Part shown: piece after piece, positions 20,302-40,213 of the stretch
Layout: every line of letters starts with the position of its first letter
How positions within the stretch are numbered: position 1 is the stretch's first letter
Origin: a bacterium
Lineage (GTDB): Bacteria > SM23-31
Reading direction: 5' to 3'
NCBI GenBank assembly: GCA_965221205.1
Contig: OZ244870.1
Coordinates: forward strand, 1,374,782 to 1,438,781
DNA: 64,000 nt
Translations under genes and position numbers: made by a program
The notes under the pieces: generated by a model
Databases searched by the model: none
Told to the model about the DNA's origin: nothing
Seen by the model: only the letters and a program-made list of their open reading frames with translations

Positions 20302-20398
20302 GATCGATATATGTGAAACGTTAATCCGTTTGTTGAATACTTTTGCAAAAAATGAATTCAAAAAATATAAAGAATAATTAAAAATGAATCAAGTGAAA

Positions 20399-21247: not shown

Positions 21248-21249
21248 AA

Positions 21250-21906: not shown

Positions 21907-21915
21907 AGTAAAATT

Positions 21916-24413: not shown

Positions 24414-24428
24414 CTCAAATCCGTTGTA

Positions 24429-25640
24429 TTAAATTTGTTGTTTGATCTGTGCATTGTTCCACCACCATTGCGATGTTTTTCGAGCTCCATATCCGAGTGT
24501 AATATCGAGCTTTAAAATGAGTCTGCGAAGTGGGGATCCGGCCAGACGAATAAATATTTTCTGCAACCAACCGGGATACTTTTTATTATAGGGACAGACG
24601 CGGATACATATTGAACAGTCGCTATTTTGATTCGCCCAGAATCCAAAACATTTTTCCGCATCTGTTGTCCATTTTTTTAAGCCGACAAAGTTCGATTTAT
24701 TGATTGGTTCATCGGCCGGAGTTTCATTGGTGATTGCTTTCGGTGGACAGGCATCGGTACAGCGCCGACAGATATCGCAGAACTCTTTGACACCGAACTT
24801 GACAGGTTTATCATTAACCAGAGGCAGATCGGTGAAAACCTTTCCGAGGCGCACACGTGGGCCGAATTCTTTTGTGATAAGAAGACTGTGCCGACCGTAC
24901 TCTCCGAGACCAGCCTGAATTGCATACGGAATTGTAAGAGCCGTATCGTTAAGACTTGCTAACGCACGGTAACCCAGATTTTGTATATATTGTGCTAGAC
25001 CAAGCAGAATTACAGTATCCATCGCATAGCCTAAACCTGTTGCCGAACCGCTTAATGCAGATGGATTTGTTTTCACAAGTTCATAATCCATCTCGGTAGC
25101 TATAACAATTACATGCGAAAAACCATCCGGTAAGTCGGTCTCCTTTTCCTGCTTGGTTCTTTGGCTGTACTTATGTGAATATACCCAATTCTCATCATAA
25201 GCGGTAATGCCCACAAGATCGGCACCGAACATCTTACCGACCTGCTTAATCTCATTGCTCATTACTACAGGATCATCAACAGGAATCTTCGAATCTGGTG
25301 CGCTCTGATGTACCGAATACTCGTCGTGATATCCTTCACGCCTGTCCTCATCAGATTTTAATTCTGCAAAAATGTCGGTAACATGCCAAGAGGCGTTGCG
25401 CAATGCATAATCTTTCTGTCCAAATCCAACTGCCCGCTTAAAGCCCTGTACCTGTTTCCGGTACGTTTCAAAAAAGATTTCAGTCTTTTTTGACCGGATC
25501 GAATTATCCCAGAAGGCCCTGCAGAAAATATCGTTTTTTTGCCTGAACCGCTGAAAATTTGGCAGTATAGAATAGCCGTTATCCTGTTTGCTGTTCTGAT
25601 TATCGGAATTTATAGGAGAATTCTGCTTTCTGTTATTCAT
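24429..25640 (-). CDS. 4Fe-4S reductive dehalogenase-like / epoxyqueuosine reductase (QueG)-family protein
   Basis: Two ferredoxin-type clusters: CDICRRCTDACPPKAI and CSICIRVCPYN. Also a GADLVGI motif. 403 aa. Confidence 0.5.
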   Translation of the reverse strand: MNNRKQNSPINSDNQNSKQDNGYSILPNFQRFRQKNDIFCRAFWDNSIRSKKTEIFFETYRKQVQGFKRAVGFGQKDYALRNASWHVTDIFAELKSDEDRREGYHDEYSVHQSAPDSKIPVDDPVVMSNEIKQVGKMFGADLVGITAYDENWVYSHKYSQRTKQEKETDLPDGFSHVIVIATEMDYELVKTNPSALSGSATGLGYAMDTVILLGLAQYIQNLGYRALASLNDTALTIPYAIQAGLGEYGRHSLLITKEFGPRVRLGKVFTDLPLVNDKPVKFGVKEFCDICRRCTDACPPKAITNETPADEPINKSNFVGLKKWTTDAEKCFGFWANQNSDCSICIRVCPYNKKYPGWLQKIFIRLAGSPLRRLILKLDITLGYGARKTSQWWWNNAQIKQQI

Positions 25641-25731
25641 ACGTGCTTCATTTATACTTGATCAATAGGGACATACCATGTAATGCATTCACTTTCATCG
25701 AAAACGGTAATTCTGGTAGCACCATGCAATT

Positions 25732-26130
25732 TCAATGATGATAACTTTTGTAATTCCTGCAAGCAACACGGCAAACAACATTCCAAATTACACCGAGAAA
25801 TGTACCGCCGGCAAACACAGTAAATATAATGATTAAAGGATGCAGATCAACACTTTTTGCGACGACAGTCGGCTGAATTAAAGTCACATCAATTATCTGA
25901 ATGATTACAAAAAGTAGTATAATAATCGGAAGTGCTTCAAACGAACCCGATTCTACGATCGACATAATAAATAGTAGAATAATTCCCTTCAGTGGTGTTA
26001 GAACTACCCAGAGGACAAATCCGGAAAGCGCGACAAGAAAACCGATAAGTAGTATTATCAAAAGAGAGCGCAGCCAGGAGGCAGAAGTCTCGTTAAATGT
26101 TTCTTCCTGAAGAAAGCGTGAATCTTCCAT
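25732..26130 (-). pseudogene. AI-2E (UPF0118) family transporter, C-terminal fragment only
   Basis: LHPLIIIFTVFAGGTFLGVIW resembles the AI-2E C-terminal consensus. Only 132 aa of an expected ~350. The end is probably frameshifted. Confidence 0.4.
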
Positions 26131-26160
26131 AAATGTGCAGTACGTTTATGTGTATAACAA

Positions 26161-26688
26161 TTATATTTCCAGTTCGCTTTGAGATAATGTCGAATAATAT
26201 AAGGAGATAAACTCTCTGTTTAACTCCACAAGCCGCTCAGAAATTATATTAGTTAAATTGAGATAATATTTATTGGTGGTGCGCACATTTCTGCCGGTCA
26301 TTTTTCGGAAATTATCATATGTTAAGATAAGAATCTGACTTGGTGCGGCAACGGTACACGTCAGTGATGAAAATTCCGGATCAACGAGATTAGCCTCACC
26401 AAACGATTGCCCAGACTCAAGCAAAACAATCTGTTTTCCAAGGCTGTCCCTGAGTGTCTCTTTCACTTCCACAGATCCTTTTTTAATGATACTGAATCGA
26501 GTGTCAACAGGTCCGGAACAGGTAAATACCGTACCTGTGTCAAAGGAGTGTTCCTCAAAGTATGGTTCGATATATGTGAAGAAGGAACTTCTGAATTCCG
26601 CAAAAAACAGGATGAGAACGCACAGCTTCATCTGCAAAGATTTCCGGGTATCGCTTTTGAATAGAATAACGCATTCGTATACAAACAA
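26161..26688 (-). CDS. cyclic-nucleotide-binding domain protein (no HTH)
   Basis: cNMP-binding beta-roll signature GxxFGE (ESGQSFGEANL). 175 aa. Confidence 0.55.
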   Translation of the reverse strand: MFVYECVILFKSDTRKSLQMKLCVLILFFAEFRSSFFTYIEPYFEEHSFDTGTVFTCSGPVDTRFSIIKKGSVEVKETLRDSLGKQIVLLESGQSFGEANLVDPEFSSLTCTVAAPSQILILTYDNFRKMTGRNVRTTNKYYLNLTNIISERLVELNREFISLYYSTLSQSELEI

Positions 26689-26934
26689 TAAATTGATTCA
26701 ATGATCGGACATAACGTACAGTTAAATATAGACATGGAGCCTTCTGAAATCAAGCAATTTTTCTTGTAAAGTTTTGTGGTAATCTGTGGCATATGTTTTG
26801 CCATTATTTGAATTGCAGGAGTGCGGCCGCTCCATTATGCATAGTGCTGAGGAGTTATAGAAAACTTTTGTGTTGATTTTTTAGATTTTACAGACCATAT
26901 TTAAGTCTATTCTCGATTTATTGAACGGATATTC

Positions 26935-28122
26935 ATGAGACTCTTTTACGTCATACTCTTAGTGCTGTTTCTTATTTTCCCGGCACATCTTTCTGCCCGA
27001 CAAGTCAGCAGTACAGGGGAACTTGCACGAATCCGTTCGGAAATTGAATCTTTCAAGCAGCGGTTGGCCACAAACACGACTCAGGAAAAATCTCTTCTTG
27101 AAAGTCTTCAAGAACTTGAGTACGAAATTTCACTCCGTGAAAATCTAAAGCGTGAGTTGGAGAACAGAGAAAATACACTTACATCACAAATGCAGTCAAA
27201 CTCGTCTATTCTGAATACGTTGTCAAATGATCTTCAGCTTGTTCGGCATGTATTCCGGAAACGTGCTGTCAATATGTATAAATATTCTCGCTCCCGTTCC
27301 AAGTTGAATTTTCTTTCGGCAGATTCATTTCAGAATCTCCCTTCACTGCTTAAATATTACACAATTCTTGCTGAGCGTGACAGACGGATTCTTGTGGACA
27401 TCAGCATGAAAACTGATAAAACGAAATCGGTTTCGGACAGGCTTTCCAGTGACATAAATGAGCAATCTCGGCTTGTGCGGGAAGTGTTAGCAGAAGAGCG
27501 CATATTACAGAAAAAACTATCCGAGCGTCAACAACTTCTCTCGACTCTGCAGGCCGATAACAACAGTATGCGGGAAGTGTTAGCTGGACGCCAAAAAGCA
27601 GAACAGGATATCATTGCTACGATGACGGCGATTGTTGAAAATGACAGGAGTAATGTTGTTTTTTCAGAAACAATTTCTGGAGAACCATTTTCGTGGACAA
27701 AAGGAAAATTACAATATCCTGCCGAAGGAACGATAGTATCACATGCAGGAATAGAAAAAAATTCAATGAAGAAAACTCAGACAGTCAATCACGGAATAGA
27801 AATTGTGTCTGAATCCGATACAAGAGTCAGAGCTGTTTATGATGGAAGGATTGCACAGATTAAGTGGCTGCCCTGGTTTGGACAGACTGTGTTTGTTCAA
27901 CACACCGAAGGATATTACACAGTTTATGCGCGGTTATCCGATATTGTTGTTCATCCTGGCGATATTGTTACCCCACAGCAGTTGATCGGAAAATTTGGAG
28001 GAGATATTTCTTCATCACTCAATACCTTACACTTCCAGATATGGAAAGGATCGGAGACGCTCGATCCTGAAGAATGGTTTGTATCTTCTTACCGGGGAGT
28101 ATCGGGAAATGAAGATGATTAA
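26935..28122 (+). CDS. M23 peptidase / murein hydrolase activator (EnvC-like) with N-terminal coiled coil
   Basis: Signal peptide, long coiled-coil region, and a C-terminal M23 domain with HTEGYYTVYARL and HLHFQIW. Confidence 0.85.
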   Translation: MRLFYVILLVLFLIFPAHLSARQVSSTGELARIRSEIESFKQRLATNTTQEKSLLESLQELEYEISLRENLKRELENRENTLTSQMQSNSSILNTLSNDLQLVRHVFRKRAVNMYKYSRSRSKLNFLSADSFQNLPSLLKYYTILAERDRRILVDISMKTDKTKSVSDRLSSDINEQSRLVREVLAEERILQKKLSERQQLLSTLQADNNSMREVLAGRQKAEQDIIATMTAIVENDRSNVVFSETISGEPFSWTKGKLQYPAEGTIVSHAGIEKNSMKKTQTVNHGIEIVSESDTRVRAVYDGRIAQIKWLPWFGQTVFVQHTEGYYTVYARLSDIVVHPGDIVTPQQLIGKFGGDISSSLNTLHFQIWKGSETLDPEEWFVSSYRGVSGNEDD

Positions 28123-28204
28123 AAAAAATAGCAAAAAATTAAGTTTGATAAGCGATTGCCGATAATAATACTGAGTCGCTTATTGCCATAATAAACTCAC
28201 CGTA

Positions 28205-28240
28205 AGCCGAACGGAGCAATCCGTTCGGTTTTCCTTTTTT
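28205..28240 (+). terminator. Rho-independent terminator after the M23 peptidase gene
   Basis: ccgaacgg-agcaat-ccgttcgg followed by TTTTCCTTTTTT. Confidence 0.65.
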
Positions 28241-28485
28241 ATATACCTGTTAACATTATACTTATCTGACGTTTTATCTCGGAAATTCTTAAGTATCAGT
28301 ATGTACAACACCTACATACTCTGCCACTGTAATATCAGTTCCGTCCGGTATACACAAACAACGTGCTTTCTTCATTCAAAAATATAGTATGCTGCAGTAT
28401 TTTCTGGAACTTTCTCACGGATAACGTGATTATCAATAGAAAGAGCACGATACGAGAACAATCTAATTTAATTATTGGAGATATT

Positions 28486-28680
28486 ATGGGAAAGGCCATG
28501 CTCACTGTTGTCATACGAGAAAACGAATCGTTTGATAAAGCAGTACGTAGGTTTCAGACAGAGTGTAAGAAAGCGGGAATAATTCAATCTGCTCAACGGA
28601 AAATGTATTATGAGAAGCCGAGCCGGAAACGGTATTTGAGCAAAATTAAGTTAAAAAGCGGGAATGGAACACTCCACTAA
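28486..28680 (+). CDS. rpsU: 30S ribosomal protein S21
   Basis: VVIRENESFDKAVRRFQTECKKAGI...YYEKPS matches the S21 consensus (VREnEpfdvALRRFkrscekaG). The exact start is uncertain (28486 or 28498). Confidence 0.75.
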   Translation: MGKAMLTVVIRENESFDKAVRRFQTECKKAGIIQSAQRKMYYEKPSRKRYLSKIKLKSGNGTLH

Positions 28681-29463
28681 TTTTAAAGCGACCCGATAGG
28701 GCACTTTAAAATTGTGAATAAAGTTGATAGATACCGAGATCGGAATTTCTATAAATATAGGATGTTCCGGAGTGAAATATTCTCAATTTATGTAAAGACC
28801 TTCAGGAATTTATATGTCGTCTGTGTCTTCATCTTCTCCATTGTGGACATAGAGGTTGTATTGAACCAAAAACAGAGAGACGTTTTAACTATTTACACAG
28901 TAAATAGTGTTTACGCTCAGCACAATGGGAATAAATGGTTTATGGCGATTGTCATGGTTGTCAATTCCAAGAAAAGCCTGTCCAGTTGCCAGCTTGGCTG
29001 CAACCTGGGCATTACGCAACAAAAAGAAAAATCCATAGCTTGAGAAAACCCCCGTGTAGTAATTTAGTATCCAGTGTCAGACAAGATGCTCTCAAAGACA
29101 GCTCTCAAATCCGCGTTAAAGAATCTCCCTGAAATATAAAATAATTGTTGGTTGTTGTATAGAAATTTTATATTTTCGTTGGGGGACCCTCCCAAAGCCT
29201 GGTGAATAGTTAGGAACTTTTACGCCACGCCTTCGGTCGAATCAGCAAACGATACTGTTGTGATGACCGGCGGATCGTTGACCTTTCGCGCTGGGGTGGA
29301 TGAGGCGGCGAAGATCGCCCGTGAGCTGCGGGAGGTCTCATCAAAAACCGCTCAACACTGCGGAATCGTGATCGTGCAAAAGCGATAGCACCCCGGAGCT
29401 TCAAAGGCCAAGTGCGGTGACACCTGAATATATCGAAGCGCTCTCGGAGCTTTAGGGACAAAC

Positions 29464-32150
29464 ATGACGGGGACAATGATTTCAGATTACTTAATGAAGA
29501 AGGCGCAAGAGCTTCCCAGCGGCGCGCACTTCTACCGCTGCGCCTTGCAGGTAAACCCTTTCGCCTATTTGATCCGGTACAAAAAGCAAACGTCGTTCCA
29601 AAGTGAGGCGGAGTATAACGCGGCGATCATTGACGCGTGCCAGGAGGCGGAAATCAAGGTTATCGGTGTTACGGATCACTACCGGTTCGATGAATCGAAG
29701 GGCCTCTGGTCAAGGCGGCCCGCGATGCCGGGCTGTTCGCCTTCAGCGGCTTCGAGGCCGTCACCAAGGACGGCGTGCATTTTCTGTGCCTGTTCGATCC
29801 CGACAAGGACGATATACTCGAACGGTTCATTGGCGACTGCGAAGTTTATGATACGAAAGCGGCCTCGCCGACGGGAAGGTTCGATTCTACTGAACTGCTC
29901 GTCCAGGTGAAAAAGTGGGGTTCGGTCTGCGTGGCAGCACATGTCGCGGCCGAGGGAGGGCTTTTGAAAAAGCTCAATGGGCAGCCTCGCGCCAATGCGT
30001 GGAAGTCACCGGACCTACTAGCCTGCGCCCTTACCGGTCCGATTGCGGATGCGCCGGAAAACATCCGGCCTATTCTTGAGAACAAGGACGCGGCACACAG
30101 GCGCAACCGTCCTGTGGCCGTGATAAACGCCTCGAATGTGAACAGCCCCGAGGACCTGAAAAAGGAAGGAGCATTCTGTTTCGTCAAGATGTCGAGCATC
30201 TCCGTCGAAGGCTTGCGGCAGGCCTTCCTTGACCCTGAATCGCGGATCCATCTCAAGAGCGATCCGCAACCGGAACCGCACGCGGAGTTTCTGGCGGTGA
30301 CGTGGGAAGGTGGGTTCCTCAGCGATACATCCGTTCACTTCAACGGCAATCTGAATGTCCTGGTCGGCGGGAGAGGAACAGGTAAATCGACAATGATCGA
30401 GAGCATGCGCTATGCGCTTGGGCTGGATCCGCTCGGAGAAGAGGCTCGCAAGGCCCATGAAGGTGTTATCCGGCATGTGCTTCGCTCCGGAACCAAAGCC
30501 TCCTTGCTGGTGCGATCGCATAAGCCTTCCGAGCGGTACTATACTATCGAGCGATCGGTCCCGAATCCGCCGATCGTGAAGGACGAAACCGGGGCAGTTC
30601 TGACGCTCTCGCCGAAGGACGTGATGCCGGGTGCGGAGGTCTTCGGACAACACGAGATATCGGAACTCACCAAAAGCCGGGAAAAGCTGACACTGCTGCT
30701 GGAGCGGTTTGTTGACAGCGATCCAACACTGTCGGGGCGAAAGTTGAAGCTCAAGCTCGAGCTCGAACACTCGCGAAGCCGTATCATGGAGGTGCTCCGC
30801 GAGATGAAAGCTCTCGACGAGCGACTTGCGGCCCTTCCGGCTCTGGAAGAGACACAAAAGCGTTTCCAGGAAGCCGGGCTTGAAGAACGTCTGAAAGAGA
30901 GGAGCCTCGTCATTCGGGAAGAGCGCGTATTCGTGAGTGTCGGCGAACGACTTGATCCTGTCCGCACGCTCCACAGGGAATTGGTCGAGATGCTTCCCTT
31001 TGATGCCGCCTTCGTCTCCCCAAAGGCTTTGGAGGGACTCCCGAATGCGGCTATCTTGGAGAGGGTCGGATCGATTCTGTGGATGCTGAGCTCGAAGCTC
31101 AAGGCGATCCGCCGATCAGCTCGCCAAAGCGTTAGCGGAAGCGGACAGCGCTGTTGCCGGAACGAAAGCCCGATGGGAGAAGAAACGGGAAGTCATCGAA
31201 GACACCTATGAGAAGCTCCTGCGGGAGCTTCAGAAATCGAAGATCGACGGAGCCGAGTTCATCCGTCTGCGAAAGCAGCTTGAAGAGCTTCGACCGTTGC
31301 GGGAAAAGAAAGAGGACCTGAAGCGTTACTTAGCCAGTCACGAGAAGCACCGCCGCAAGCTGCTTGTCGAATGGGAGGACACCAAGGCAAGCGAGCATCG
31401 TGAGTTTCGAAGTGCGGCGAAGAAAGTTTCTCGCAAGCTCGGGGATCGGGTTCAGGTGGAAGTTACCATGGCGGGAAATCGTGATGCCGCTCGAGCGGCT
31501 CTTACGCAAGGTCGGGGGAAACCTGAGCGCCGCTCTGGAGCGGCTGCGTTCGCTGGACCAACTTTCGCTGCCGGACTTGGCGCAGTGCTGCCGTGAAGGG
31601 AAAGAGGCGCTGATGAAGAAATACTTCTTGCCGACAGGTTCGGCCGAGCGAATTACGCAAGCAGGCCCGGCCCTGTTCATGAGAATTGAGGAGTTGGACC
31701 TTCCGGCCGGCGACGACAAAGATCGAATTGAACACAGCACCGGACGGCGAGCCGTCCTCGTGGCAGACGTTGGAAACGCTATCGACCGGCCAGAAGGCAA
31801 CGGCTGTGTTGCTCCTTCTGCTGTTGGAGTCTGAAGCCCCGCTTGTTGTCGATCAGCCGGAAGACGACCTCGACAATCGGTTCATTACCGAGGGCGTGGT
31901 GCCGATTATGCGGCAGGAGAAACGCCGTCGGCAATTCGTCTTTTCGACCCACAACGCGAACATTCCAGTCCTCGGCGATGCGGAGTTGATCTTGGGCCTG
32001 GCGTCGGGAGAGGTTGGGGAAGGACATGCCAGAATAGCTACCAAGCATATGGGTTCAATTGACTCCAGACCGGTCCGCGAGCTGGTGGAAGAGATCCTCG
32101 AAGGGGGCAAGGATGCCTTCGAGATGCGGCGTTCCAAGTACGGGTTCTGA
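29464..32150 (+). pseudogene. PHP phosphoesterase + SMC/RecF-like ABC ATPase fusion (ppl-like defence gene), broken into at least 5 frames
   Basis: PHP motifs VIGVTDHYRFDE and GVHFLCLFD, Walker A VLVGGRGTGKSTM, coiled-coil middle, ABC signature LSTGQKATAVLLLLL, and Walker B/D-loop LVVDQPEDDLD. The pieces are ORFs 29464-29910, 29775-31211, 31297-31596, 31364-31834 and 31686-32150. Confidence 0.55.
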
Positions 32151-32153
32151 ATT

Positions 32154-33357
32154 ATGCCAATGCTCACCGAACTACTGGAGACCATTAGCAACGGAGAAAA
32201 CTCCGGGGTCGAGTTTAAGCGAGACACACTGCAAAACTACGATCTTGCAAAAGAGCTGGTCGCCTTCTCGAACCTTGGGGGCGGGATGGTGCTTCTTGGC
32301 GTGGAGGATGACGGAAGCATATCGGGCATCACCAGAGATAACCTCGAAGAATGGGTAATAACCACATGCCGGGACAAGATCAGACCGGCCATCATCCCCT
32401 TCTTTGAGATTGTTCGCAACGTCGAGCCGGGAAAGAACGTGGCAATTGTCCGTGTGACACGCGGCTACGACGTTCACAGCCTCTGGCACAGCAACAGCAG
32501 AAAGTATCACATCAGGGTAGGAACGCAGAGCAGGGAAGCGACTCCGGAAGAGCTGGGGCGGCTTTTCCAGCAACGGGGAACGGTCCGCGCTGAATTGCTG
32601 CCGGTCTCAGGATCGACTGTTGACGACTTGGACCGGCGACGACTTCGGGATTATTTTGTCCGTATTCGTCAACAGGACGTGCCCACTGACGCGGATGAAG
32701 CGGCCTGGATATCCCTTCTTGTAAACACGGAGATCATGACGGAGGATGGTGTCACCGTTAGCGGGATGCTCTTGTTTGGCACGACACCAAACCGTTTTCT
32801 TCCCCAGGCCGGCATTGACGCTGCAGCTTTCCCCGGAACGGGAAAAGACTATGCGGCGCGCGAACGCATGGCGCTCCGTGGCCCGATGACCACCTTGATC
32901 TCCGCAAATGGCGCTATCGTGGAAAACGGCCTGGTTGAACAGGCACTAGGGTTTGTGCTCCGGAATACCCCGGTGACGGCTGTCCTCGAAAACGGGAGAA
33001 GAGTCGAAAAGCCTGCCTATCCTCAAGAGGTGATCCGAGAGGCAGTTGTCAACGCGCTCATCCATCGCGACTACCTTCTCTCCAGCACGGATATCGAACT
33101 GGCCGTGTACAGCAATCGGCTGGAAATCGTTTCACCTGGACGGCTTTCAAACGGTATTACACGCCGGAACGGATGCGCGCAGGGACACGATCTGCCCGAA
33201 ATCAGCTCCTGAAGGATGTCATGCGGGACTACGGTTATCTGGAGCACATGGGGTGGGAATTCCGCTAAAGATCATCGCAGGGATGCAGAAGCACAACAAT
33301 ACAACGCCTGAACTGATTGAAGACCAGGAACGCTTCATCCTGCGCGTGCGGACATGA
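32154..33357 (+). pseudogene. AlbA_2 (Schlafen-like) DNA-binding + HATPase_c_4 protein, C-terminus frameshifted
   Basis: N-terminal ENSGVEFKRD...LAKELVAFSNLGGGMVLLGVEDDGSISGI is an AlbA_2 signature. C-terminal REAVVNALIHRDY...IEIVSPGRL is HATPase_c_4. The tail GYLEHMGWGIPLKIIAGM continues in a different frame (33181-33357). Confidence 0.55.
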
Positions 33358-33503
33358 CGGAGGTTCGTCAGATGGAGGATGCATTCCACCTCATCGAGGA
33401 AGATCTCATCTTGTGGTTGGCGATGTGCTGGGCGATCTCGAGATCACCGATTCGCTGCTGTCCCGACGCAGGTTGGACACGTGACTCCGCAACCGGATTA
33501 AGG

Positions 33504-35022
33504 AGCTAACACAATGAATAGAAAGTTTAAGAGATATGCAGAAAAGACCTACCCCCCCCCTCGAAAAATTAAATCTTCATTCAAGAACGATTTTCTGCCG
33601 CGATAATTTGCCGGTTCTGCGGGGCATTAACAGCAATTCCATAGACCTGATTTACTTAGACCCTCCGTGACCCTCCGTTTAATAAAGGACGTAATTTCCA
33701 TTTGCTCCTATTGGCACAACCGCAGAAGGGGCTGATTTCAGGGATATATGGTCGCCAGACGAAGTTAAGGACGAGTGGCATAATCAGATAAATGATCGCT
33801 TTCCCGAGTTATACAAATACCTCAATGCCGTTGGAGATATCGGAAGCAGGTCAGCAAAATATTATCTGATTTATATGGGGGTAAGGCTTATCGAGATGAA
33901 ACGAGTGTTGAAGGATACCGGAAGTCTGTATCTACATTGCGACCCGACCGTTTCGCATTATCTAAAATTGTTGTTGGATACAATTTTCGGACATGCGCAG
34001 TTCAGGTCCGAAATTTCATGGAAACGCACTTTTTCGCACAATGACAGTCGAACGTTTGGAAATGTTCGGGATGTAATTCTGTTTTACGGAAATTCGGACA
34101 TAAACACCGGTTCCGTTCGGGTTCCTTTGAATAACGAGTATGTCCAAAAATTCTATCGTTACGAAGATTCCGTAGGACGCTATGCGGCTATCGATTTAAC
34201 AGGGCAGGGACGTCGGTAGGGGAAAGTGGCAACCCGTGGAGAGGCATTAATCCTGGTGATGTGGGAAGGCAGTGGTCCGTTCCGTTGACAGGCAATTACG
34301 CCACGTGGATCGAGGAAAACATTATACCGGGATACAGATCTATCGGGAGGCCACAGGAACGACTGGACGCACTTGATAACGTTGGGATGATTCACCAATC
34401 CAGAACGGGACGGAGAGTACCGAGCCTCAAACGTTACCTCAAAGCCGCACAGGGTCAGGTTCCTTCTAACTCATGGGACGATATAAACGCTGTGCAGTCT
34501 CATTCCAAAGAACGCACCGGTTATCCTACGCAAAAACCACTTGCCCTGTTAGCGCGGATAATAAAAGCCAGTTCAAACCCGGGCGACATAGTGCTAGATC
34601 CGTTTTGTGGTTGTGCAACAACCTGTATTGCTGCTGAAAAACTTGAAAGGCAGTGGATTGGAATTGACGTTTCAAAAAAAGCATACGACTTGGTGATAGA
34701 GCGGCTTAAGAAGGAAGTTCCTCCAGACTTGTTCAGGGGAAAGCCTATTTTCAGAACGGATAGACCGACAAGAAACGATGTGCTCTATAAGAAAGTTCCG
34801 ACAAAGGAAGACAGGTTTTATCTATACGGAAAACAAAACGGCACGTGTTGCGGCTGCAATACCCAGTTTGAAATACAGCATCTTGAAATAGATCATATAG
34901 TTCCCCGTTCACAAGGTGGAGGTAGTGAGCGTGAAAACCTTCAACTACTCTGTGGTCATTGTAATCGTACAAAAGGCGACCGCCCAATGGAATATCTAAT
35001 GGCACGACTTAAAGTCGCTTAA
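33504..35022 (+). pseudogene. beta-class N4/N6 DNA methyltransferase (PF01555-like) fused to a C-terminal HNH endonuclease, with at least 4 disruptions
   Basis: RBS AAGGAG, then MNRKFKRYAEKTYPP and a C9 tract (33551-33559); one fewer C gives IFCRDNLPVLRGINSNSIDLIYLDPP. A 10-bp tandem duplication gaccctccgt (33659-33678) introduces a stop after DPP. Further along: KDTGSLYLHCD, TGYPTQKPLALLARII, FCGCATTCIAA, and HNH CCGCN...EIDHIVPRSQGG...LLCGHCNRTKGD. Confidence 0.6.
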
Positions 35023-35040
35023 ATCCTTTCATTAAAATAA

Positions 35041-35661
35041 GGACAAATCCATACCGACACGTTTAAGGAACAACTCAAATCTGTCATCAGTGAGTATGAA
35101 TCAGCTGCATCAGACACAATCTCCAACATGCAAATTATTGAAAGAATTGCTGGCCGAAATTCTGTTTATTTTAAACAGGTCATGAGAATTGATAAGGACA
35201 AGGAGTTCTCTAAGAAATTTAACATGATATCAATGAGTTCGGAAGAGGCTTACATATATAACACAATTTATATGATGGTGCACTATCTCGCCACATCGAT
35301 TTCGTTCGAAAACAGGGGGCTTGCAGCGCCCGGCAGTATCGATTCTGTTCCGGTGTCTGCAGATAAAGAGGATTATAACTCAAATGGCATGTGGAGCGCA
35401 CGTAAAGCTTGGAAAATTATCGAAAACGCTGAGCGGATTATTGCAGTTGAACTGTTATGCGCCGCTCAGGCTGTCGATTTCCACAGCGAGTACAAGCCGG
35501 GAAAAGGAACACAAGCGGCGTATAATGTGATTCGGTCAAAAGTGAAAATGCTGAAACAAGACCGAATAATCGGTAAAAATATTCAATCTGTCATCGGTCT
35601 AATCCGGACTGGCAATCTGGTAGAGGCTGTAGAAAAGTCTGTTGGAAAATTGTCGCTTTAG
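35041..35661 (+). pseudogene. hutH: histidine ammonia-lyase, C-terminal ~205 aa fragment only
   Basis: NAERIIAVELLCAAQAVDF is a HAL/PAL C-terminal motif. The frame opens right after a stop at 35038-35040. The N-terminal ~300 aa, including the MIO-forming ASG motif, are absent. Confidence 0.55.
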
Positions 35662-35688: not shown

Positions 35689-36684
35689 GTGATAATGGCA
35701 GGGAATATGAGAAACTGTTTTCGATTCACATTACTTTTTTCAGCAGTGCTAAGCGTTTTCTTCGTGATAGTTGCTTGCAACGGTGGCACAATATCGGAAA
35801 GTGAACACGCAGCCGTTCCAGTCGAAACGGGATCGCTCGATGTGAAATGGATTCATGGTTCCGATCCGTGTTCCGGGAATACCGGTCCACAGTTTCAAGT
35901 GCACCGATATGCGGCAAACACCTATATACTCCGTCAGAACAAATGCGATTCTCGCCATGCACCATTCAGCTATTTGCTGTTTGGTGAGGAAAGAGCAATC
36001 CTTTTCGATACCGGTGCTGAGCTGGATTCAGGTGGAGGCAACAACGGATTGAAAAAAGTTGTGGAGGATATATTTGCTGAATGGAGTGCGGAACAGGGAA
36101 GAGCAATACCGCCGTTGACAGTGGCACATTATCATGGCCACTTCGACCATTTCTACGCCGATCCTGAGTTTAGAGCTGATGAAAATACAATTGTTGTCGG
36201 TACAGGCCCAGAAAATGTCGAGAAGTTTTTCGGTATTACCGATTGGCCTAATAAAACAGTTTTTTATGATCTCGGAAACCGGAGTTTGACCGTTATTCCA
36301 ATCCCCGGCCACACGGAAGACAGTATTACGATATACGATCCATGGACACACTTTCTGCTGACTGGTGATTCGGTCTATCCGGGAACGCTTTTTATTCCGG
36401 ACTGGATGTCATTCAAACAGAGTATCAACAAACTGGCTTCGTTTGCCAATGAGCATCCGATATCGTATATACTCGGCACCCATATTGAGATGACCACAAC
36501 ACCAGACCAGGATTATAGCGGAACCTATGAACCGAATGAACATGCGCTGCAACTCGGTGTTGAGCACCTTTGGGAACTGCGTGATTCACTCGAAGCGTTA
36601 GGTGATACGCCGATAAAAAAGATACACGATGATTTTATCATTTTCCCGCGCATATTTGACGAGGATGCATCCGGCCAAAATTAA
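35689..36684 (+). CDS. MBL-fold metallo-hydrolase, probable lipoprotein
   Basis: Signal peptide plus lipobox (VIVACNG). HYHGHFDH metallo-beta-lactamase motif. Confidence 0.7.
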   Translation: MIMAGNMRNCFRFTLLFSAVLSVFFVIVACNGGTISESEHAAVPVETGSLDVKWIHGSDPCSGNTGPQFQVHRYAANTYILRQNKCDSRHAPFSYLLFGEERAILFDTGAELDSGGGNNGLKKVVEDIFAEWSAEQGRAIPPLTVAHYHGHFDHFYADPEFRADENTIVVGTGPENVEKFFGITDWPNKTVFYDLGNRSLTVIPIPGHTEDSITIYDPWTHFLLTGDSVYPGTLFIPDWMSFKQSINKLASFANEHPISYILGTHIEMTTTPDQDYSGTYEPNEHALQLGVEHLWELRDSLEALGDTPIKKIHDDFIIFPRIFDEDASGQN

Positions 36685-37020
36685 TTAAGTAAAAAATGAC
36701 TATAATCCAGGTTGTATGTTATTTCATTTTTGTGTATCTTTGAGATGTGAAAGCGGTAATGCCGGGGTGGTGAAATTGGTAGACGCGCTGGACTCAAAAT
36801 CCAGTAGGCTTCGGTCCGTGAGGGTTCGAGTTCCTCCCTCGGCACTGTAGTAAAAACAAGGACTTACAAGGATTGTTTATGAGTCCTATAAATGTCTGAA
36901 GATTTTACTCCCACCGCTATTCCCACCATAAAGCACATGTTTTGAGTGGCTTCATTAAATTAATTTGGTCTATTTATAGGATGATTTTGATGTGACCATT
37001 GCCCGACGTACCATTTCATT
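36648..37020 (+). repeat. direct repeat copy 1 (MBL 3' end + tRNA-Leu + ~180 bp downstream)
   Basis: About 85-90% identical to 39851-40213 by eye. Shared strings: cgcatatttgacgaggatgcatccgg, tgtgtatctttgagatgtgaaagcggtaatgccggggtggtgaaattggtagacgcgctggactcaaaatccagt, cgacgtaccatttcat. Confidence 0.8.
36761..36844 (+). tRNA. tRNA-Leu (anticodon CAA), copy 1; weak variable arm, possibly degenerate
   Basis: Acceptor stem GCCGGGG/CCTCGGC, D-arm TGGTGAAATTGGTAGAC, anticodon loop CTCAAAA, long variable arm, T-loop TTCGAGT. Confidence 0.7.
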
Positions 37021-37623
37021 CCCAGAACCATATTTCACATTTATAATCCCTCGCTAAAATATCCGAAAAATTTATGAAATATATAGATTTTGCTTATGTG
37101 TAAAGTAAACTTTCCACCTGGAGAGTTCTCACTTTATTAAAATCTCGCCTCAAACCTAATTCCTATCCCATTCGAAGAATATCGTCCTTGCAGGTAATTA
37201 AAGTTTGAATTGTTGTCTATGTATTAGGCAGGTGGAGAGTTATCTGGAAAGGTAATTTACGGAAAGATGTGAGTAAAAATCGCTTATAGAAATTAAGAGA
37301 TGCATTTTGCTTTATAAGTATTTTCTGCTCCCCGGGTGGGACGATGTTAGAACTTTTTTCAAGGATAAAAAGGAAGATATCCAAATCCCAGCTTTTGATC
37401 TTCCAGCCTCAGCATAACGGCTTGCGCATAACCGGCCCAAAGTATGCGGGCCTACTCCCTCAAAGCTAACTGAAAAGGACCTGCGGAGCAATGTCTATCC
37501 TGCCTGAACGGTGCACTTTGGGTTCGGCGTTGATTCACTGGTTATGCGGCGAACGTTAGGTTACTCCCCGCGGTAAGAGGCGAGCGAGGCGTATCGATCA
37601 TAGTGGCTAAATATCAACACGGC

Positions 37624-39297
37624 CTAATTTTTGGAGGGGATCGGCTGGTCGCCCCAGTGGCGTTGTGCATCCAAGATGATCTGTTCGTATCTGGTGCGCG
37701 CTACTTCGTAGTTCGCCAGTACCTCCTGTTGAGCGGCGGTGGATGGAAAGCGATCCGGTTGAGAACGGGCGATATCGGCCAGTATTTGAGTCCAGCGTAG
37801 CATGTAGGTTGCATCTTGGGCAAACGCTGTCGGCTTTTCATCTACCGATAGATAAACCGGGCTGGTGTGTGCTTGGCGGAGTAAGCCGTCCGGGGCCCGA
37901 TAGAGCGCGCGGGCGGCAATCCAGCCGCTTCTTTTCGGATACAGTTCGTAGGTTAGCGTCTGTCGTAAGATCGGTGCAGGTTTTTGATCGAGCAGGCTCA
38001 GCGAGGCAACGACGCGACCGTTGTGAACGAGTTGGAGCGATTCCAACGCTTCAATCGAACGCAGGGTTGCAATGAATTGAATGGGGCTGGTGTCCGATGA
38101 CGTTCTGGAGATCATTGTTCCCGGGCCCTGGCTGTCAGCATCCAGGGTCAGCATGGGCCCCGTGGTGACGAAGGAACGTCCGGCCTTGATCGAGTCCCAC
38201 ATTTTCTCTGCCGTCAACGGTCCGTTAATTCTGGCATAGACGCGGTTATGGCCGGTCGGTACCGGCATCACGCCGATGGCCGAGCCGCCGGAGACGCCTA
38301 GGCGAAAGCCGCAATTCAAGAAGCGGTAATACAGATTGTTCGTGCGATGGAACAAACCGTCGCCGACAGCAGCATTGGACTCACCCGCCGACAGCGGTCC
38401 GATCATGCCCCAGCCACCCACCAAGGTTGACCTGCGATGGTAGTGGTTGTGGCAGACTTGAATGGTGTTGAGCACCCCCAGCGCCGCACCGATGACGGTC
38501 TCTGCCCATGATGGTTTGTCGCTGTCGAATACAACGCCCGGTGACTGGGTTCGCGCGGTTCGGCAAAGCGCGGCGTCAGTGGGAAAATGCTCCCCGAATT
38601 GCTTGGTGGTGATGGGGCTGTCCAGGTTGAACAGAAATGTCGCGCCGATAGTCCAGCCGGGTGCGGCGTTGCGATCGATGCGTTCGATTTCGATGTTGTT
38701 TCGCGTGATGAGGTGGCGGTCGTCGATGACGATCGGCGCTGTGTAGGTTTCATCCGGCCACGTTGCGTGCCACGATTCCTCCCGTCCTCGCAGCCAGTAG
38801 GTGAATGCCGGCACGAGATGCACGTCGTCGGCCAGCGCCAGTTGTTGAAGGATGTGAGGATTGTTCTGTCCCAGATGCACGTGCAGATCGGCTGAATACC
38901 AGCCTTCGGACGGCAAATCGATCCAGCGCTTCAGCTGAATGGTATTCTCGATCGTTTCGCCGGCTTTCAGGGTGAATGCAAGGTCTACCGGAGTGTATTC
39001 TTTCCCTTTTTCAACATGCACCACCGCATTTCCGGCCGGCACCTCCATTGTGAAAACGCCATCGCAGCTAAAGCTTTGATCTTCGGCGTAGACCGTCGCC
39101 GTCTGCGGCGCTATTGGTTGGAAAAAACGCTGGCTGTCAACATCGATCCATGCGCGAGCCGGGGTTGTATTACCGCTTTCGTCGACAATCCGGATTGAGA
39201 TGCGGGCCAGTATCTTGAACGGATCGGATTGACCGCATGTAACAAGGATAGAGCAGCAAAATAAAATCGCAAATAGTAATGAGGACAATTTATTCAC
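37624..39297 (-). CDS. CehA/McbA-like PHP-domain metallophosphoesterase, lipoprotein, GC-rich
   Basis: Signal peptide plus lipobox LVTCGQS, a carboxypeptidase-regulatory-like N-terminal domain, and a DLHVHLGQ PHP motif. GC content is far above background. Confidence 0.5.
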   Translation of the reverse strand: MNKLSSLLFAILFCCSILVTCGQSDPFKILARISIRIVDESGNTTPARAWIDVDSQRFFQPIAPQTATVYAEDQSFSCDGVFTMEVPAGNAVVHVEKGKEYTPVDLAFTLKAGETIENTIQLKRWIDLPSEGWYSADLHVHLGQNNPHILQQLALADDVHLVPAFTYWLRGREESWHATWPDETYTAPIVIDDRHLITRNNIEIERIDRNAAPGWTIGATFLFNLDSPITTKQFGEHFPTDAALCRTARTQSPGVVFDSDKPSWAETVIGAALGVLNTIQVCHNHYHRRSTLVGGWGMIGPLSAGESNAAVGDGLFHRTNNLYYRFLNCGFRLGVSGGSAIGVMPVPTGHNRVYARINGPLTAEKMWDSIKAGRSFVTTGPMLTLDADSQGPGTMISRTSSDTSPIQFIATLRSIEALESLQLVHNGRVVASLSLLDQKPAPILRQTLTYELYPKRSGWIAARALYRAPDGLLRQAHTSPVYLSVDEKPTAFAQDATYMLRWTQILADIARSQPDRFPSTAAQQEVLANYEVARTRYEQIILDAQRHWGDQPIPSKN

Positions 39298-39850
39298 TAA
39301 AATTTCCTCCTTTAAGTGTATGATAGAAATTATCAGAAAAATTTATTGCTTGAACATTGGCTAACGTGACTCAATATGTTGTAAATTAAAAAACAGACCT
39401 GAACTTTGACAACATTTTGATATTGATAATTTTGTGCCACGAAATCCCATGATACTTCTTTTATGGACAGGCAACTGTGTTGTGCCTGTTATTGCATCGA
39501 GTATCAGGAAGTACTTGGATCATTAGATATCATTAGAATTATAAAGATTAATCTAAAATACTGACCATATCAAACCACAAACAACCAATTGCTCATCAAA
39601 TTATGTCTTAGTGACTTTAGTTGGAGAAATGAGGCTGAAGATAGATTAATTTATGAGAATATAAGAGATAAATTTTGAAAACACAACCCTTCAAAAATAA
39701 TTTATGCACCATCACTAACGGGTAGTTGGGAAACCATACTACCTTACGCGGCAATAGCCACACCATCAGTTTATAAAGTCGATAGCCGGCAATTCGTTGT
39801 GGTTGTCGCAGGCGGCGGCAAAGGCCTATACTCAGCACCTCAACCTTCCG

Positions 39851-40213
39851 GCGCATATTTGACGAGGATGCATCCGGCAAAAATTAATCAAGTAAAAAAT
39901 GACTATAATCCGGGTTGCATGTTATTTCATTTTTGTGTATCTTTGAGATGTGAAAGCGGTAATGCCGGGGTGGTGAAATTGGTAGACGCGCTGGACTCAA
40001 AATCCAGTGGGAGCAATCCCGTGAGGGTTCGAGTCCCTCCTCCGGCACTATAATAAAAAAGGACCTATAATGTTGAATTGTAAGTCCTTGTTTGTGTCCA
40101 ATATTTTATTCCCACCATAAAGTACATATTTTAAGTAGTTTCATTGAATCCTATTGATCAATCTTAATTTGTATGACACTGGTGTGAGTATTTCACGACG
40201 TACCATTTCATCC
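39851..40213 (+). repeat. direct repeat copy 2
   Basis: See copy 1. Confidence 0.8.
39964..40047 (+). tRNA. tRNA-Leu (anticodon CAA), copy 2; canonical variable arm and T-stem
   Basis: Same acceptor stem, D-arm and anticodon arm as copy 1. The variable arm gggagcaatccc pairs cleanly. T-stem GAGGG/CCCTC. Confidence 0.8.

What the first reader, a model, noticed from the sequence alone, without database searches (positions are those of the whole stretch)
29180..35030. Foreign GC-rich island carrying three defence-type genes, inserted between rpsU and a truncated hutH
Base composition jumps from about 38% to about 60% GC at ~29.2 kb and returns to background near 33.5 kb. Inside are three consecutive plus-strand genes:
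- a PHP phosphoesterase fused to an SMC/RecF-like ABC ATPase;
- an AlbA_2 (Schlafen-like) + HATPase_c_4 protein;
- a lower-GC PF01555-type DNA methyltransferase fused to an HNH nuclease.
PHP+ATPase, Schlafen-like ATPase and MTase-HNH are all domain pairs associated with anti-phage islands. Directly downstream sits a hutH gene missing its N-terminal ~300 aa, which marks the right-hand insertion boundary. No integrase or transposase accompanies the island. All three genes are frameshifted, so this looks like an old, decaying defence island, or an island whose high-GC sequence was poorly assembled.
Basis: partly seen in the sequence, partly recalled or inferred. Interest (0 to 1): 0.7.

Follow-up and report, generated by a model that had tools for sequence, protein, structure and literature searches.

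The report
Broken imported defence-gene cassette beside rpsU
A GC-rich piece of foreign DNA carrying a two-gene candidate anti-virus module, plus an unrelated methylase-nuclease gene, replaced part of the histidine-degradation gene hutH in an uncultured low-GC bacterium; in this strain all three genes are dead, while a sister strain keeps the two-gene module intact at the same spot.

Summary
GC rises from about 39% to 56-59% at 29181 and falls again near 33.4 kb. Three consecutive plus-strand genes with the stated domains are all frameshifted, and hutH is truncated.

The interpretation needs correcting in five ways.
1. The "island" is composite. It has a GC-rich fragment of an integrative element, whose tyrosine-recombinase 3' remnant lies on the minus strand at 33368-33460, and a separate lower-GC MTase-HNH gene.
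2. Genes 1 and 2 are one conserved operon: a TrlF-family PHP/SMC-like ATPase (NCBIfam NF045780, a distant Ppl relative) plus a Schlafen-like AlbA_2/HATPase_c_4 partner. They are adjacent in 67 of 68 metagenomic loci. On an IncC plasmid they sit inside a type I R-M operon. MTase-HNH never accompanies them elsewhere.
3. The frameshifts are real. They recur in independent assemblies and include tandem duplications of 2, 4 and 10 bp.
4. The decay is not old. GC3 is not ameliorated. A 90%-identical relative has the empty site with intact hutH. A sister strain with 99.4%-identical flanks has the same insertion with both cassette genes intact.
5. Cassette alleles differ far more between sister strains (dS 0.2-0.4, dN/dS 0.2-0.3) than the flanks do (dS 0.02). 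This points to allele exchange by recombination.

Verdict: an ordinary but well-resolved dead copy of a catalogued, experimentally uncharacterised defence-type module.

The parts
28854..29180 (.). Low-GC filler at the left junction. Homology to the island-free relative L003 ends at 28853. Origin unknown.
   Evidence: It is matched only by the same locus in the sister strain L091.
29181..33357 (+). GC-rich foreign segment (56-59% GC) carrying the TrlF-partner operon. The JGI contigs L004 and L005 start exactly at 29181.
29464..32150 (+). Pseudogene of a TrlF-family protein: an N-terminal PHP-like phosphoesterase fused to an SMC/Rad50-like ABC ATPase with a coiled-coil insert. It has four frame-breaking insertions: +2 at 29703-29706, +1 at 31109, +1 at 31485 and +4 at 31703-31706.
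   Evidence: (493 bits against a 350-bit cut-off when stitched).
32154..33357 (+). Pseudogene of the conserved partner, with a Schlafen-like AlbA_2 domain and a HATPase_c_4 domain (COG2865-type). Lesions: an AC duplication at 33159-33160 and a 1-nt deletion at 33254.
33368..33460 (-). Degraded 3' remnant of a tyrosine recombinase gene. It has a 37-bp deletion that removes the catalytic-Tyr region.
   Evidence: The homologous C-terminus in L009 is a called product with a PF00589 hit marked weak.
33514..35022 (+). Pseudogene of a beta-class N6/N4 DNA methyltransferase fused to an HNH nuclease (43-49% GC). Lesions: -11 at 33550-33559 (which creates a C9 tract), a +10 tandem duplication of GACCCTCCGT at 33659-33668 inside the DPPF motif, +2 near 33697 (shared with the sister strains), and -1 at 34205.
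35023..35259 (.). Filler of unknown origin between MTase-HNH and the hutH remnant.
35260..35661 (+). 3' remnant of hutH (residues 384-516 of 516). This is the right junction of the insertion/deletion.

Best explanation
Window 28854-35259 is a composite, horizontally acquired replacement. About 6.4 kb of foreign DNA took the place of 2.27 kb of native DNA. The lost DNA held an 80-aa ORF, an ArsP-type permease gene and the first 383 codons of hutH.

The insert has two unrelated parts.

**Part 1: the GC-rich fragment.** This is the end of an integrative element, shown by the tyrosine-recombinase remnant. It carries a tightly coupled two-gene operon, typically with 3 nt between the genes.
- TrlF has a PHP-like phosphoesterase domain fused to an SMC/Rad50-like ABC ATPase, whose two head halves are separated by an approximately 240-residue coiled coil.
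- Its partner has a Schlafen-like AlbA_2 domain and a GHKL-like HATPase_c_4 domain.

By analogy with the distant relative Ppl, and from the operon's recurrent position next to or inside R-M operons, the intact module most likely acts as an anti-phage or anti-plasmid nuclease system. In this model the ATPase/coiled-coil part senses DNA (ends), the PHP domain degrades it, and the partner acts as a nucleic-acid sensor or second effector. This function is inferred, not shown.

**Part 2: the MTase-HNH gene.** It circulates separately in this low-GC clade. It was already dead in the common ancestor of the three sister strains, which share a +2 lesion.

**State in this strain.** The module is non-functional. 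Small insertions and deletions accumulated stepwise. The JGI contig has 3 TrlF lesions and 1 partner lesion, L001 has 4 and 1, and the window has 4 and 2. A sister strain keeps an intact allele at the same junctions. The cassette coding regions differ between sister strains far more than the flanks do, mostly at synonymous sites. Alleles have therefore been exchanged by recombination rather than having diverged in place.
For: **Foreign origin and junctions.**
- GC profile.
- Empty site in L003.
- Identical junctions in L001, L091 and L096.
- An independent Logan contig crosses the left junction at 100% identity.

**Family assignment.**
- The stitched TrlF scores 493 bits against a 350-bit cut-off.
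- A model of an intact homologue has pLDDT 84.8. Foldseek matches it to SMC, JetC, MukB, Rad50 and RecN heads with coiled coil (E 1e-10 to 1e-5) and to the PHP phosphoesterase 3e0f (E 1.5e-4).

**Operon conservation.**
- 67 of 68 loci have the partner 1-18 nt downstream of TrlF.
- 70 of 71 TrlF genes and 55 of 58 partners are uninterrupted.
- The partner on the IncC plasmid is 42% identical to ours and sits between hsdS and hsdR.
- A minority of loci have a methyltransferase homologue plus a large ORF upstream of TrlF (type III-like by order and size only).

**Defence link.**
- Ppl mechanism: PMC12904381.
- Bacterial AlbA_2 domains are associated with defence systems, and the domain acts as an effector in SAMD9 and Avs9: PMC12680541.
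- Acidic AlbA_2 residues E15, D24, D52 and E65 are conserved in at least 97% of 55 partners.

**The lesions are real.**

**Intact sister allele.**

**Recombination.**
- TrlF dS is 0.22-0.44 with dN/dS 0.2-0.3.
- The flanking M23 peptidase gene has dS 0.019.
- Window against the island-free L003 has dS 0.24 at that gene.
- The divergent block is confined to 29.45-33.1 kb.

**MTase-HNH is separate.**

**Integrase remnant.**
Against: - No experiment shows that TrlF or its partner defends against phage. Literature searches for TrlF found nothing biological.
- PADLOC-DB v2 has no model for the pair. Its only related hit is a partial Ppl match.
- Pfam PHP is below threshold on the window copy. I did not verify the canonical PHP metal ligands.
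- No att repeats or target duplication were found at the ends. The insertion mechanism is therefore not shown.
- The JGI contigs stop exactly at the left junction. Whether they come from this host or from another one is unknown.
- L091 is probably a Flye assembly (a guess from the name contig_3), so its private frameshifts could be errors.
- Recombination is inferred from divergence patterns only. I made no formal test.
Confidence: 0.8

Rival explanations
1. The three genes form one three-component, R-M-like defence system. MTase-HNH would supply self-marking and cutting, and TrlF with its partner would be accessory.
For: TrlF pairs are found inside a type I R-M operon. They also lie downstream of methyltransferase homologues in a few metagenomic loci. 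A methylase next to the pair is therefore not unusual.
Against: - None of the 67 loci with sequence downstream has MTase-HNH after the pair.
- A recombinase remnant separates the pair from MTase-HNH.
- GC differs: 57% for the pair against 45% for MTase-HNH.
- MTase-HNH occurs alone and intact at another locus.
- In L096 the pair is intact while MTase-HNH carries the shared +2 frameshift.
Confidence: 0.05
2. The frameshifts, or the island junctions, are assembly or sequencing artefacts of a GC-rich region in a metagenome-assembled genome.
For: The source is a metagenome assembly. One lesion lies in a G4 run (33254) and one in a CC pair (34205).
Against: - The same junctions and lesions occur in L001, in two JGI contigs from another sample and in a Logan contig.
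- Five of the ten lesions are 2-, 4- and 10-bp tandem duplications.
- L096, an assembly with the same contig-naming style, has both genes intact.
- About 70 homologous loci are uninterrupted.
Confidence: 0.04
3. An ancient island has been decaying in place since a single old insertion.
For: There are many lesions per gene. MTase-HNH carries a lesion shared by three strains.
Against: - GC3 is 0.68, equal to that of intact homologues.
- The island is absent from the 90%-identical relative L003.
- An intact allele is present in a strain whose flanks are 99.4% identical.
- Divergence between alleles is mostly synonymous (dN/dS 0.2-0.3), so it arose under selection and not as pseudogene drift.
- Lesions accumulate stepwise among copies that are 99.7% identical or more over the cassette.
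Confidence: 0.08
4. TrlF and its partner are a DNA-repair or maintenance module of mobile elements (an SbcCD/Rad50-Mre11 analogue) rather than an immune system.
For: The architecture, an SMC/Rad50-like ATPase plus a phosphoesterase, parallels Mre11-Rad50. The module is frequent on conjugative plasmids. RefSeq gives a GO term for double-strand break repair.
Against: - The module is embedded between hsdS and hsdR.
- Its nearest named relative is the anti-phage protein Ppl.
- The partner carries a Schlafen-like domain that is statistically associated with defence systems.
- Flanks vary and alleles turn over, as is typical of defence genes.
Confidence: 0.15

Closest known systems
TrlF family AAA-like ATPase (NCBIfam NF045780), as annotated on IncC and other plasmids
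   Same: The match runs end to end above the curated cut-off when the window copy is stitched (493 against 350 bits). The same partner gene lies immediately downstream; the IncC partner is 42% identical to ours.
   Different: - The window copy is a pseudogene with four frameshifts.
- It stands alone next to a recombinase remnant rather than inside a type I R-M operon.
- Plasmid TrlFs are only about 35% identical to it.
- I found no experimental study of the family.
Ppl (PHP-ATPase single-gene anti-phage system; NF042955, PADLOC PDLC02208)
   Same: It has the same order of domains: an N-terminal PHP-type phosphoesterase followed by an ABC/SMC-like NTPase. It is the best named defence relative. 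Ppl is described as a 3'-5' ssDNA exonuclease gated by NTPs and by DNA 3'-OH ends (PMC12904381).
   Different: The score is 160 bits against a 1000-bit cut-off, and the best-scoring aligned stretch is the C-terminal head. Ppl works alone, whereas TrlF has an almost obligatory partner gene.
Mre11-Rad50 / SbcCD and the SMC-like defence ATPases (Lamassu LmuB, Wadjet JetC, PARIS AriA)
   Same: The model shows a split ABC head with a long antiparallel coiled coil, and the top structural matches are these proteins. There are weak HMM hits to LmuB, JetC and AriA.
   Different: In TrlF the nuclease-type domain is fused in cis and is of PHP type, not Mre11 type. No LmuA/LmuC, JetABD or AriB partners are present.
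Schlafen / SAMD9 / Avs9 AlbA_2 effector domains; COG2865-type AlbA_2 + HATPase_c_4 proteins
   Same: [quoted passage not shown] Bacterial AlbA_2 domains are significantly associated with defence systems (PMC12680541).
   Different: There is no STAND NTPase, SIR2 or TPR module. Here AlbA_2 is joined to a GHKL-like HATPase_c_4 domain and is paired with TrlF. Nuclease activity is untested.
Beta-class (PF01555) type II/III DNA methyltransferases; MTase-HNH fusion proteins
   Same: DPPF and the other N6_N4_Mtase motifs and a C-terminal HNH motif are present. The best PADLOC models are MTase_II. The fusion family is very large, with about 8000 hits at E<=1e-10 among the 8000 candidates scored.
   Different: - It is a single polypeptide without a separate restriction partner.
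- The window copy has four frame-breaking indels.
- Phage homologues are at most 39% identical, and the listed matches end before the HNH motif.

Membership tests
TrlF family (NF045780) | Full-length HMM match above the curated cut-off (350 bits) | tested here: met
   The stitched window protein scores 493.2 bits over residues 10-881 against profile positions 2-944. The separate fragments sum to a similar score.
TrlF family (NF045780) | N-terminal PHP-type phosphoesterase domain | tested here: inconclusive
   Pfam PHP gives E 0.049 on the window copy. It scores 26.7 bits against a 26.4-bit cut-off in family member P0107. The model of the homologue matches the PHP phosphoesterase 3e0f (E 1.5e-4, 257 columns). 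I did not check the metal-ligand residues.
TrlF family (NF045780) | ABC/SMC-type ATPase head (Walker A, signature motif, Walker B/D-loop) split by a coiled coil | tested here: met
   The motifs GGRGTGKS, LSTGQKA and LVVDQPEDDLD are present in the stitched sequence and invariant in alignment A1. The model has helices at 410-647. SMC, Rad50 and JetC are the top structural matches.
TrlF family (NF045780) | Intact open reading frame, that is, a functional member | tested here: not met
   There are four frame-breaking insertions relative to the intact sister allele L096.
Ppl anti-phage protein (NF042955 / PDLC02208) | Full-length match above the cut-off (1000 bits) | tested here: not met
   The score is 160.5 bits in two stretches, the best-scoring one being the C-terminal head. 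PADLOC Ppl scores 122 bits for the homologue P0003.
Ppl anti-phage protein (NF042955 / PDLC02208) | Single-gene system | tested here: not met
   67 of 68 loci have the AlbA_2/HATPase_c_4 partner immediately downstream.
Two-gene TrlF-COG2865 module (proposed here) | The partner gene lies within about 20 nt downstream on the same strand | tested here: met
   In the window the TrlF stop is at 32150 and the partner start at 32154. The same arrangement holds in 67 of 68 loci and on the IncC plasmid.
Two-gene TrlF-COG2865 module (proposed here) | Protection against phage or plasmids | not testable with these tools
   This needs cloning of an intact pair (L096 or the IncC pair) and challenge assays.
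Integrative genomic island | Compositional deviation, and absence from a close relative | tested here: met
Integrative genomic island | Integrase gene | tested here: not met
   Only a remnant of about 90 nt of the 3' end of a tyrosine recombinase gene is present.
Integrative genomic island | Flanking direct repeats (att) or a tRNA target | tested here: not met
   There are no flanking repeats of 14 nt or more. The nearest tRNA is at 36761 and belongs to a different insertion.
Type II R-M / MTase-HNH fusion | N6_N4 MTase motifs and an HNH motif in one reading frame | tested here: not met
   Both domains are recognisable, but the frame is broken four times. The intact relative P0251 has both domains in 491 aa.
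Lamassu / Wadjet | SMC-like ATPase together with LmuA/LmuC or JetA/B/D partners | tested here: not met
   Only weak LmuB and JetC head matches were found, and no partner genes.

The most novel reading that the evidence does not exclude
TrlF and its Schlafen-like AlbA_2/HATPase_c_4 partner would be an unrecognised, widespread two-gene immune module. It would be Ppl-like in its nuclease-ATPase core but dependent on a partner. It travels on integrative elements and plasmids and plugs into type I R-M operons, and possibly type III-like ones.

In this uncultured lineage one chromosomal site would be a hotspot. Alleles of the module are swapped by recombination between near-identical strains and are inactivated strain by strain through small tandem duplications. 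That would give a natural series from intact to dead that could reveal the module's cost.
Probability: 0.5. Interest if true: 0.55.

Novelty: new member of a known kind. Interest (0 to 1): 0.35.

Why it matters
For this window the result is mainly a clean annotation: a dead, composite insertion that should not be counted as an active defence system.

The comparative data have wider use. They define a tight two-gene TrlF-partner operon that defence-system catalogues (PADLOC-DB v2) do not list and that I could not find studied. It occurs in more than 1000 plasmid records, including IncC resistance plasmids, where it is embedded in type I R-M.

The sister strains also give a natural series: an intact allele, then copies with 3+1, 4+1 and 4+2 lesions (TrlF + partner). 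The accompanying allele replacement is a small but concrete example of defence-gene turnover at a fixed chromosomal site in an uncultured bacterium.

Tried and rejected
- **Literature.** Searches for "TrlF" returned only spectroscopy (TRLFS) and unrelated papers. The origin of the name stays unknown.
- **Solved structures.** PDB sequence and profile searches with TrlF found no relative beyond generic SMC head motifs, and no entry named Ppl.
- **Repeats.** A repeat search at the island ends found no att-like or target-duplication repeats.
- **RNA and signals.** Rfam (E<=0.1) found only the two tRNA-Leu genes outside the island. The promoter and terminator scan gave nothing above shuffles that I would interpret.
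- **Filler segments.** The left filler (28854-29180), the leader (29181-29463) and the right filler (35023-35259) match nothing else among the fetched loci, apart from the same locus in sister strains.
- **Programmed frameshifting or phase variation.** I considered this and rejected it. The lesions are not in repeat tracts, there are several per gene, they differ between strains, and an intact allele exists. The C9 tract at 33551-33559 is the by-product of an 11-bp deletion.
- **Rescue of the MTase frame.** The 10-bp duplication plus the shared +2 sum to +12. I checked whether this restores the MTase. It does not, because the 33 nt in between contain four stop codons.
- **Host taxonomy.** This could only be approximated. 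The best named DnaJ relatives are candidate division KSB1 at 63-65% identity. Cluster look-ups carried no names.

Full report
**1. Observation**

A sliding-window profile confirms the composition jump. GC is 0.36-0.42 up to 29.0 kb and 0.56-0.59 from 29.25 to 33.25 kb. It is intermediate (0.43-0.49) from 33.5 to 35.0 kb and then returns to background. The rest of the window is 0.30-0.45, apart from a second GC-rich block at 37.25-39.3 kb.

Three-frame translation shows three consecutive plus-strand genes, each split over several frames.

- Gene 1 matches AAA_23, SMC_N and AAA_21 in Pfam. NCBIfam assigns it to TrlF_fam_ATP (NF045780), with weaker matches to Spaf_1101 and to the anti-phage protein Ppl.
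- Gene 2 matches SLFN_AlbA_2 and HATPase_c_4.
- Gene 3 matches N6_N4_Mtase and HNH.
- Downstream, ORF 35128-35661 matches only the last approximately 95 profile positions of Lyase_aromatic (HutH). Upstream lie rpsU and an M23 peptidase gene.

**2. Source, host and the empty site**

The window belongs to a circular metagenome-assembled chromosome of about 3.4-3.8 Mb. Locus L001 (ERZ25067264, 3.42 Mb) differs from the window by 5 substitutions and one 2-bp indel over 21 kb. An independent Logan contig (ERR13605531) is 100% identical from 16935 to 29795, so it crosses the left junction. The best named DnaJ relatives are candidate division KSB1 at 63-65% identity, followed by Bacteroidota and Ignavibacteria at 54-59%. 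The host is therefore an uncultured bacterium whose nearest named relatives are in KSB1.

One relative, OZ252239.1 (L003), has an M23 peptidase 90% identical to the window's. It shows the empty site:

- rpsU, then an 80-aa ORF and an ArsP-type permease gene on the minus strand;
- an intact 516-aa hutH;
- the metallo-beta-lactamase-fold gene, then a region 91% identical to the window's tRNA-Leu repeat.

Homology to the window stops at 28853 and resumes at about 35260. Thus 2.27 kb of native DNA was replaced by about 6.4 kb. The hutH remnant corresponds to residues 384-516 at 89% identity, so about 383 aa are missing rather than about 300.

**3. Gene 1 and gene 2 are one conserved operon**

*Gene 1.* I used an intact homologue (P0003, 883 aa, 82% identical) as a guide and stitched gene 1 across four frameshifts. 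The stitched protein matches NF045780 end to end with 493 bits against a cut-off of 350. Ppl reaches only 160 of 1000 bits.

An AlphaFold2 model of P0003, built from 33 homologues, has a mean pLDDT of 84.8. It shows three elements:

- an N-terminal alpha/beta domain;
- a split ABC head;
- helices spanning residues 410-647.

Foldseek against the PDB returns SMC, MukB, JetC, condensin, Rad50 and RecN heads with coiled coil (E 2e-10 to 1e-5). It also returns the PHP-type metal-dependent phosphoesterase 3e0f (E 1.5e-4, 257 columns).

Pfam PHP is sub-threshold on the window copy (E 0.049) but passes in family member P0107.

*The pair.* In 80 metagenomic loci found with the TrlF fragment (64-84% identity, locus GC 47-66%):

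- 70 of 71 complete TrlF genes are uninterrupted;
- 67 of the 68 loci with sequence downstream carry an AlbA_2/HATPase_c_4 gene 1-18 nt after the TrlF stop, most often 3 nt;
- 55 of 58 complete partners are uninterrupted.

Other neighbours are not conserved. A minority of loci have a methyltransferase homologue and a large ORF of about 1140 aa upstream. I call these type III-like from their order and size only; I did not run a family search on them.

TrlF homologues occur in 1123 plasmid records, mostly conjugative. On IncC plasmid pCFR-0b27 the gene order is tyrosine recombinases, hsdM, hsdS, TrlF, partner, hsdR, SprT. The partner there is 42% identical to ours over its full length.

Named TrlF relatives at 56-81% identity come from Rhodospirillaceae, Rhodocyclaceae, Leptospirales, Deltaproteobacteria, Planctomycetota, Methylocystis and Nitrospira. 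The cassette is therefore highly mobile.

PADLOC-DB v2 has no model for either protein, beyond a partial Ppl match and matches to domains of pAgo-associated proteins. I found no paper on TrlF.

**4. An integrase remnant, and a separate third gene**

*Integrase remnant.* Two JGI contigs (L004 and L005, sample 3300047102) start exactly at window 29181. Up to 33297 they differ from the window at only 12 positions (about 99.7% identity). Beyond that they diverge into GC-rich DNA that encodes, on the minus strand, the C-terminus of a tyrosine recombinase (...IGNHTFHATGITAYLEN...IANHESPRTTKLYDRCQDEISLDEVERILI*).

The window keeps a degraded piece of this at 33368-33460. A 37-bp deletion removes the catalytic-Tyr region. 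A homologous recombinase C-terminus lies directly downstream of TrlF in Methylocystis (L009), where the called product has a PF00589 hit marked weak. The GC-rich part is therefore the end of an integrative element that has lost most of itself.

*Gene 3.* MTase-HNH belongs to a very large fusion family with a typical length of 480-490 aa. It is not found after the TrlF pair in any of the 67 loci.

An intact copy of 491 aa (P0251, 88% nucleotide identity) sits alone in another 38%-GC genome, between a fragmented metH and a methionyl-tRNA synthetase-type gene. Its homology to the window covers only the gene, 33567-35031.

At the window's locus it carries a +2 frameshift near 33697 that the sister strains L096 and L091 share, so it was already dead in their common ancestor. 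The window adds an 11-bp deletion, a 10-bp tandem duplication inside the DPPF motif, and a 1-bp deletion.

**5. The frameshifts are real and recent, and the cassette alleles are exchanged**

A sister strain (L096, ERZ25071132, a 3.79-Mb circular contig) has flanks 99.4% identical to the window's and the same junctions. It carries an intact TrlF (896 aa) and an intact partner (400 aa).

Relative to L096 the window has these frame-breaking changes:

| Gene | Change | Position |
|---|---|---|
| TrlF | +2 (CT) | 29703-06 |
| TrlF | +1 | 31109 |
| TrlF | +1 | 31485 |
| TrlF | +4 (CCGG) | 31703-06 |
| Partner | +2 (AC) | 33159-60 |
| Partner | -1 | 33254 |

The lesions accumulate stepwise. The JGI contigs lack the 31109 and 33159-60 changes, and L001 lacks only 33159-60.

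Five of the ten lesions across the three genes are tandem duplications of 2 to 10 bp, and none lies in a homopolymer longer than 4 nt. They recur in assemblies from different pipelines, so assembly error is excluded.

GC3 of the window's TrlF is 0.68, within the range of intact homologues (0.58-0.74), so there is no amelioration.

Divergence between sister strains is very uneven:

| Gene and comparison | dS | dN/dS |
|---|---|---|
| M23 flank, window vs L091 | 0.019 | 0.12 |
| M23 flank, window vs island-free L003 | 0.24 | 0.18 |
| TrlF, window vs L096 | 0.22 | 0.29 |
| TrlF, window vs L091 | 0.42-0.44 (two guide proteins) | 0.20-0.21 |
| Partner, window vs L096 and vs L091 | 0.19-0.21 | 0.26-0.30 |
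| MTase-HNH, window vs L096 and vs L091 | 0.09-0.11 | 0.23-0.29 |

The highly divergent block is confined to about 29.45-33.1 kb. The leader (29181-29460), the junctions and the last 150 nt of the partner gene are 97-98% identical between strains.

The cassette alleles are about as far apart as, or further apart than, the host is from a relative that lacks the island. Their differences are mostly synonymous. They therefore cannot have diverged in place. The simplest reading is replacement of the cassette coding region by homologous recombination with other functional alleles, followed by inactivation in the window's lineage. This is an inference, and I ran no formal recombination test.

**6. 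Likely mechanism of the intact module (inferred)**

- TrlF probably dimerises through ATP-bound ABC heads and a Rad50/SMC-like coiled coil. It carries a PHP-type phosphoesterase in cis.
- Its closest named relative, Ppl, is described as a 3'-5' ssDNA exonuclease. That enzyme is held off by NTPs and triggered by nucleotide depletion together with 3'-OH ends made by phage homing endonucleases (PMC12904381).
- The partner has a Schlafen-like AlbA_2 domain whose acidic residues (E15, D24, D52, E65) are conserved in at least 97% of 55 sequences. It also has an E-x3-N-A-x2-H-R-D-Y motif in its HATPase_c_4 part.
- AlbA_2 is the effector domain of SAMD9/9L, SLFN and Avs9, and bacterial AlbA_2 domains are significantly associated with defence systems (PMC12680541).
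- The module's position between hsdS and hsdR recalls other genes embedded in type I R-M operons, such as PrrC. That comparison rests on my own knowledge.

I therefore favour a DNA-sensing nuclease/ATPase defence module, with the partner acting as sensor or second effector, at a probability of about 0.6. A repair or maintenance role for mobile elements is the main functional rival. In this window none of this operates.

**7. Comparison and verdict**

Gene 1 is a degraded member of the TrlF family. It is related to Ppl but is not a member of that family. The pair is not Lamassu or Wadjet. The island lacks the integrase, att sites and tRNA target of a classical integrative island. Gene 3 is an ordinary, and dead, member of a large MTase-HNH family.

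The feature itself is ordinary, a dead composite insertion. It comes with two useful by-products. One is the definition of a tight, uncatalogued TrlF-partner operon. The other is a natural intact-to-dead allele series at one chromosomal site.

Noticed in passing
window 36643-40116: A second GC-rich insertion (56-60% GC, about 37.25-39.3 kb) lies between two copies of tRNA-Leu(CAA) (36761-36845 and 39964-40048). The tRNAs sit inside repeats of about 270 bp that are 87% identical. The insertion carries one intact 557-aa minus-strand ORF (37624-39297) with a CehA/McbA-family metallohydrolase domain and no PADLOC hit. The relative L003 has no matching sequence there.
   Followed up: partly
window 25732-26130 (minus strand): This ORF is only a 132-aa fragment of an AI-2E family transporter, matching profile positions 222-307 of 327. 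The relative L003 also has a shortened 220-aa version. It looks like a native pseudogene.
   Followed up: partly
window 33551-33559: A C9 homopolymer lies in the 5' end of the MTase-HNH gene. An 11-bp deletion relative to the sister strains created it. It looks like a phase-variation tract but is a deletion scar.
   Followed up: yes
L093:5831-9736 (ERZ25072076, a 38% GC genome): Next to the intact MTase-HNH copy, the methionine synthase gene metH is split into at least six ORFs. This suggests pseudogenes elsewhere in this group of genomes, or local assembly problems there.
   Followed up: no
L091:16197-18417: In a sister strain, the region after the second tRNA-Leu carries an IS1595-family transposase gene and a second, distant MTase-HNH paralogue (about 39% identical). 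The window has different sequence there.
   Followed up: no
L094 (NZ_CP026233.1, IncC plasmid pCFR-0b27) 183606-200236: The TrlF-partner pair sits between hsdS and hsdR of a type I R-M operon. Upstream are tyrosine recombinase genes and a small gene annotated as a protein kinase; downstream is an SprT-family protease gene. TrlF homologues occur in 1123 plasmid records, 811 of them conjugative.
   Followed up: partly
L092:10001-15474: Another MTase-HNH homologue (77% identical) lies directly upstream of a 1223-aa SIR2_2 protein gene, near an IS1595 transposase gene. The surroundings look like a defence island.
   Followed up: no
window 40360-42231 (minus strand): A 623-aa ORF in a 30-36% GC stretch has no Pfam or NCBIfam match.
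   Followed up: no
L004 and L005 (JGI 3300047102), positions 4291 onward: The two JGI contigs are identical up to 4291 and then diverge inside the recombinase gene. They also begin exactly at the island's left boundary. This pattern suggests that the GC-rich element sits in more than one context in that sample.
   Followed up: partly
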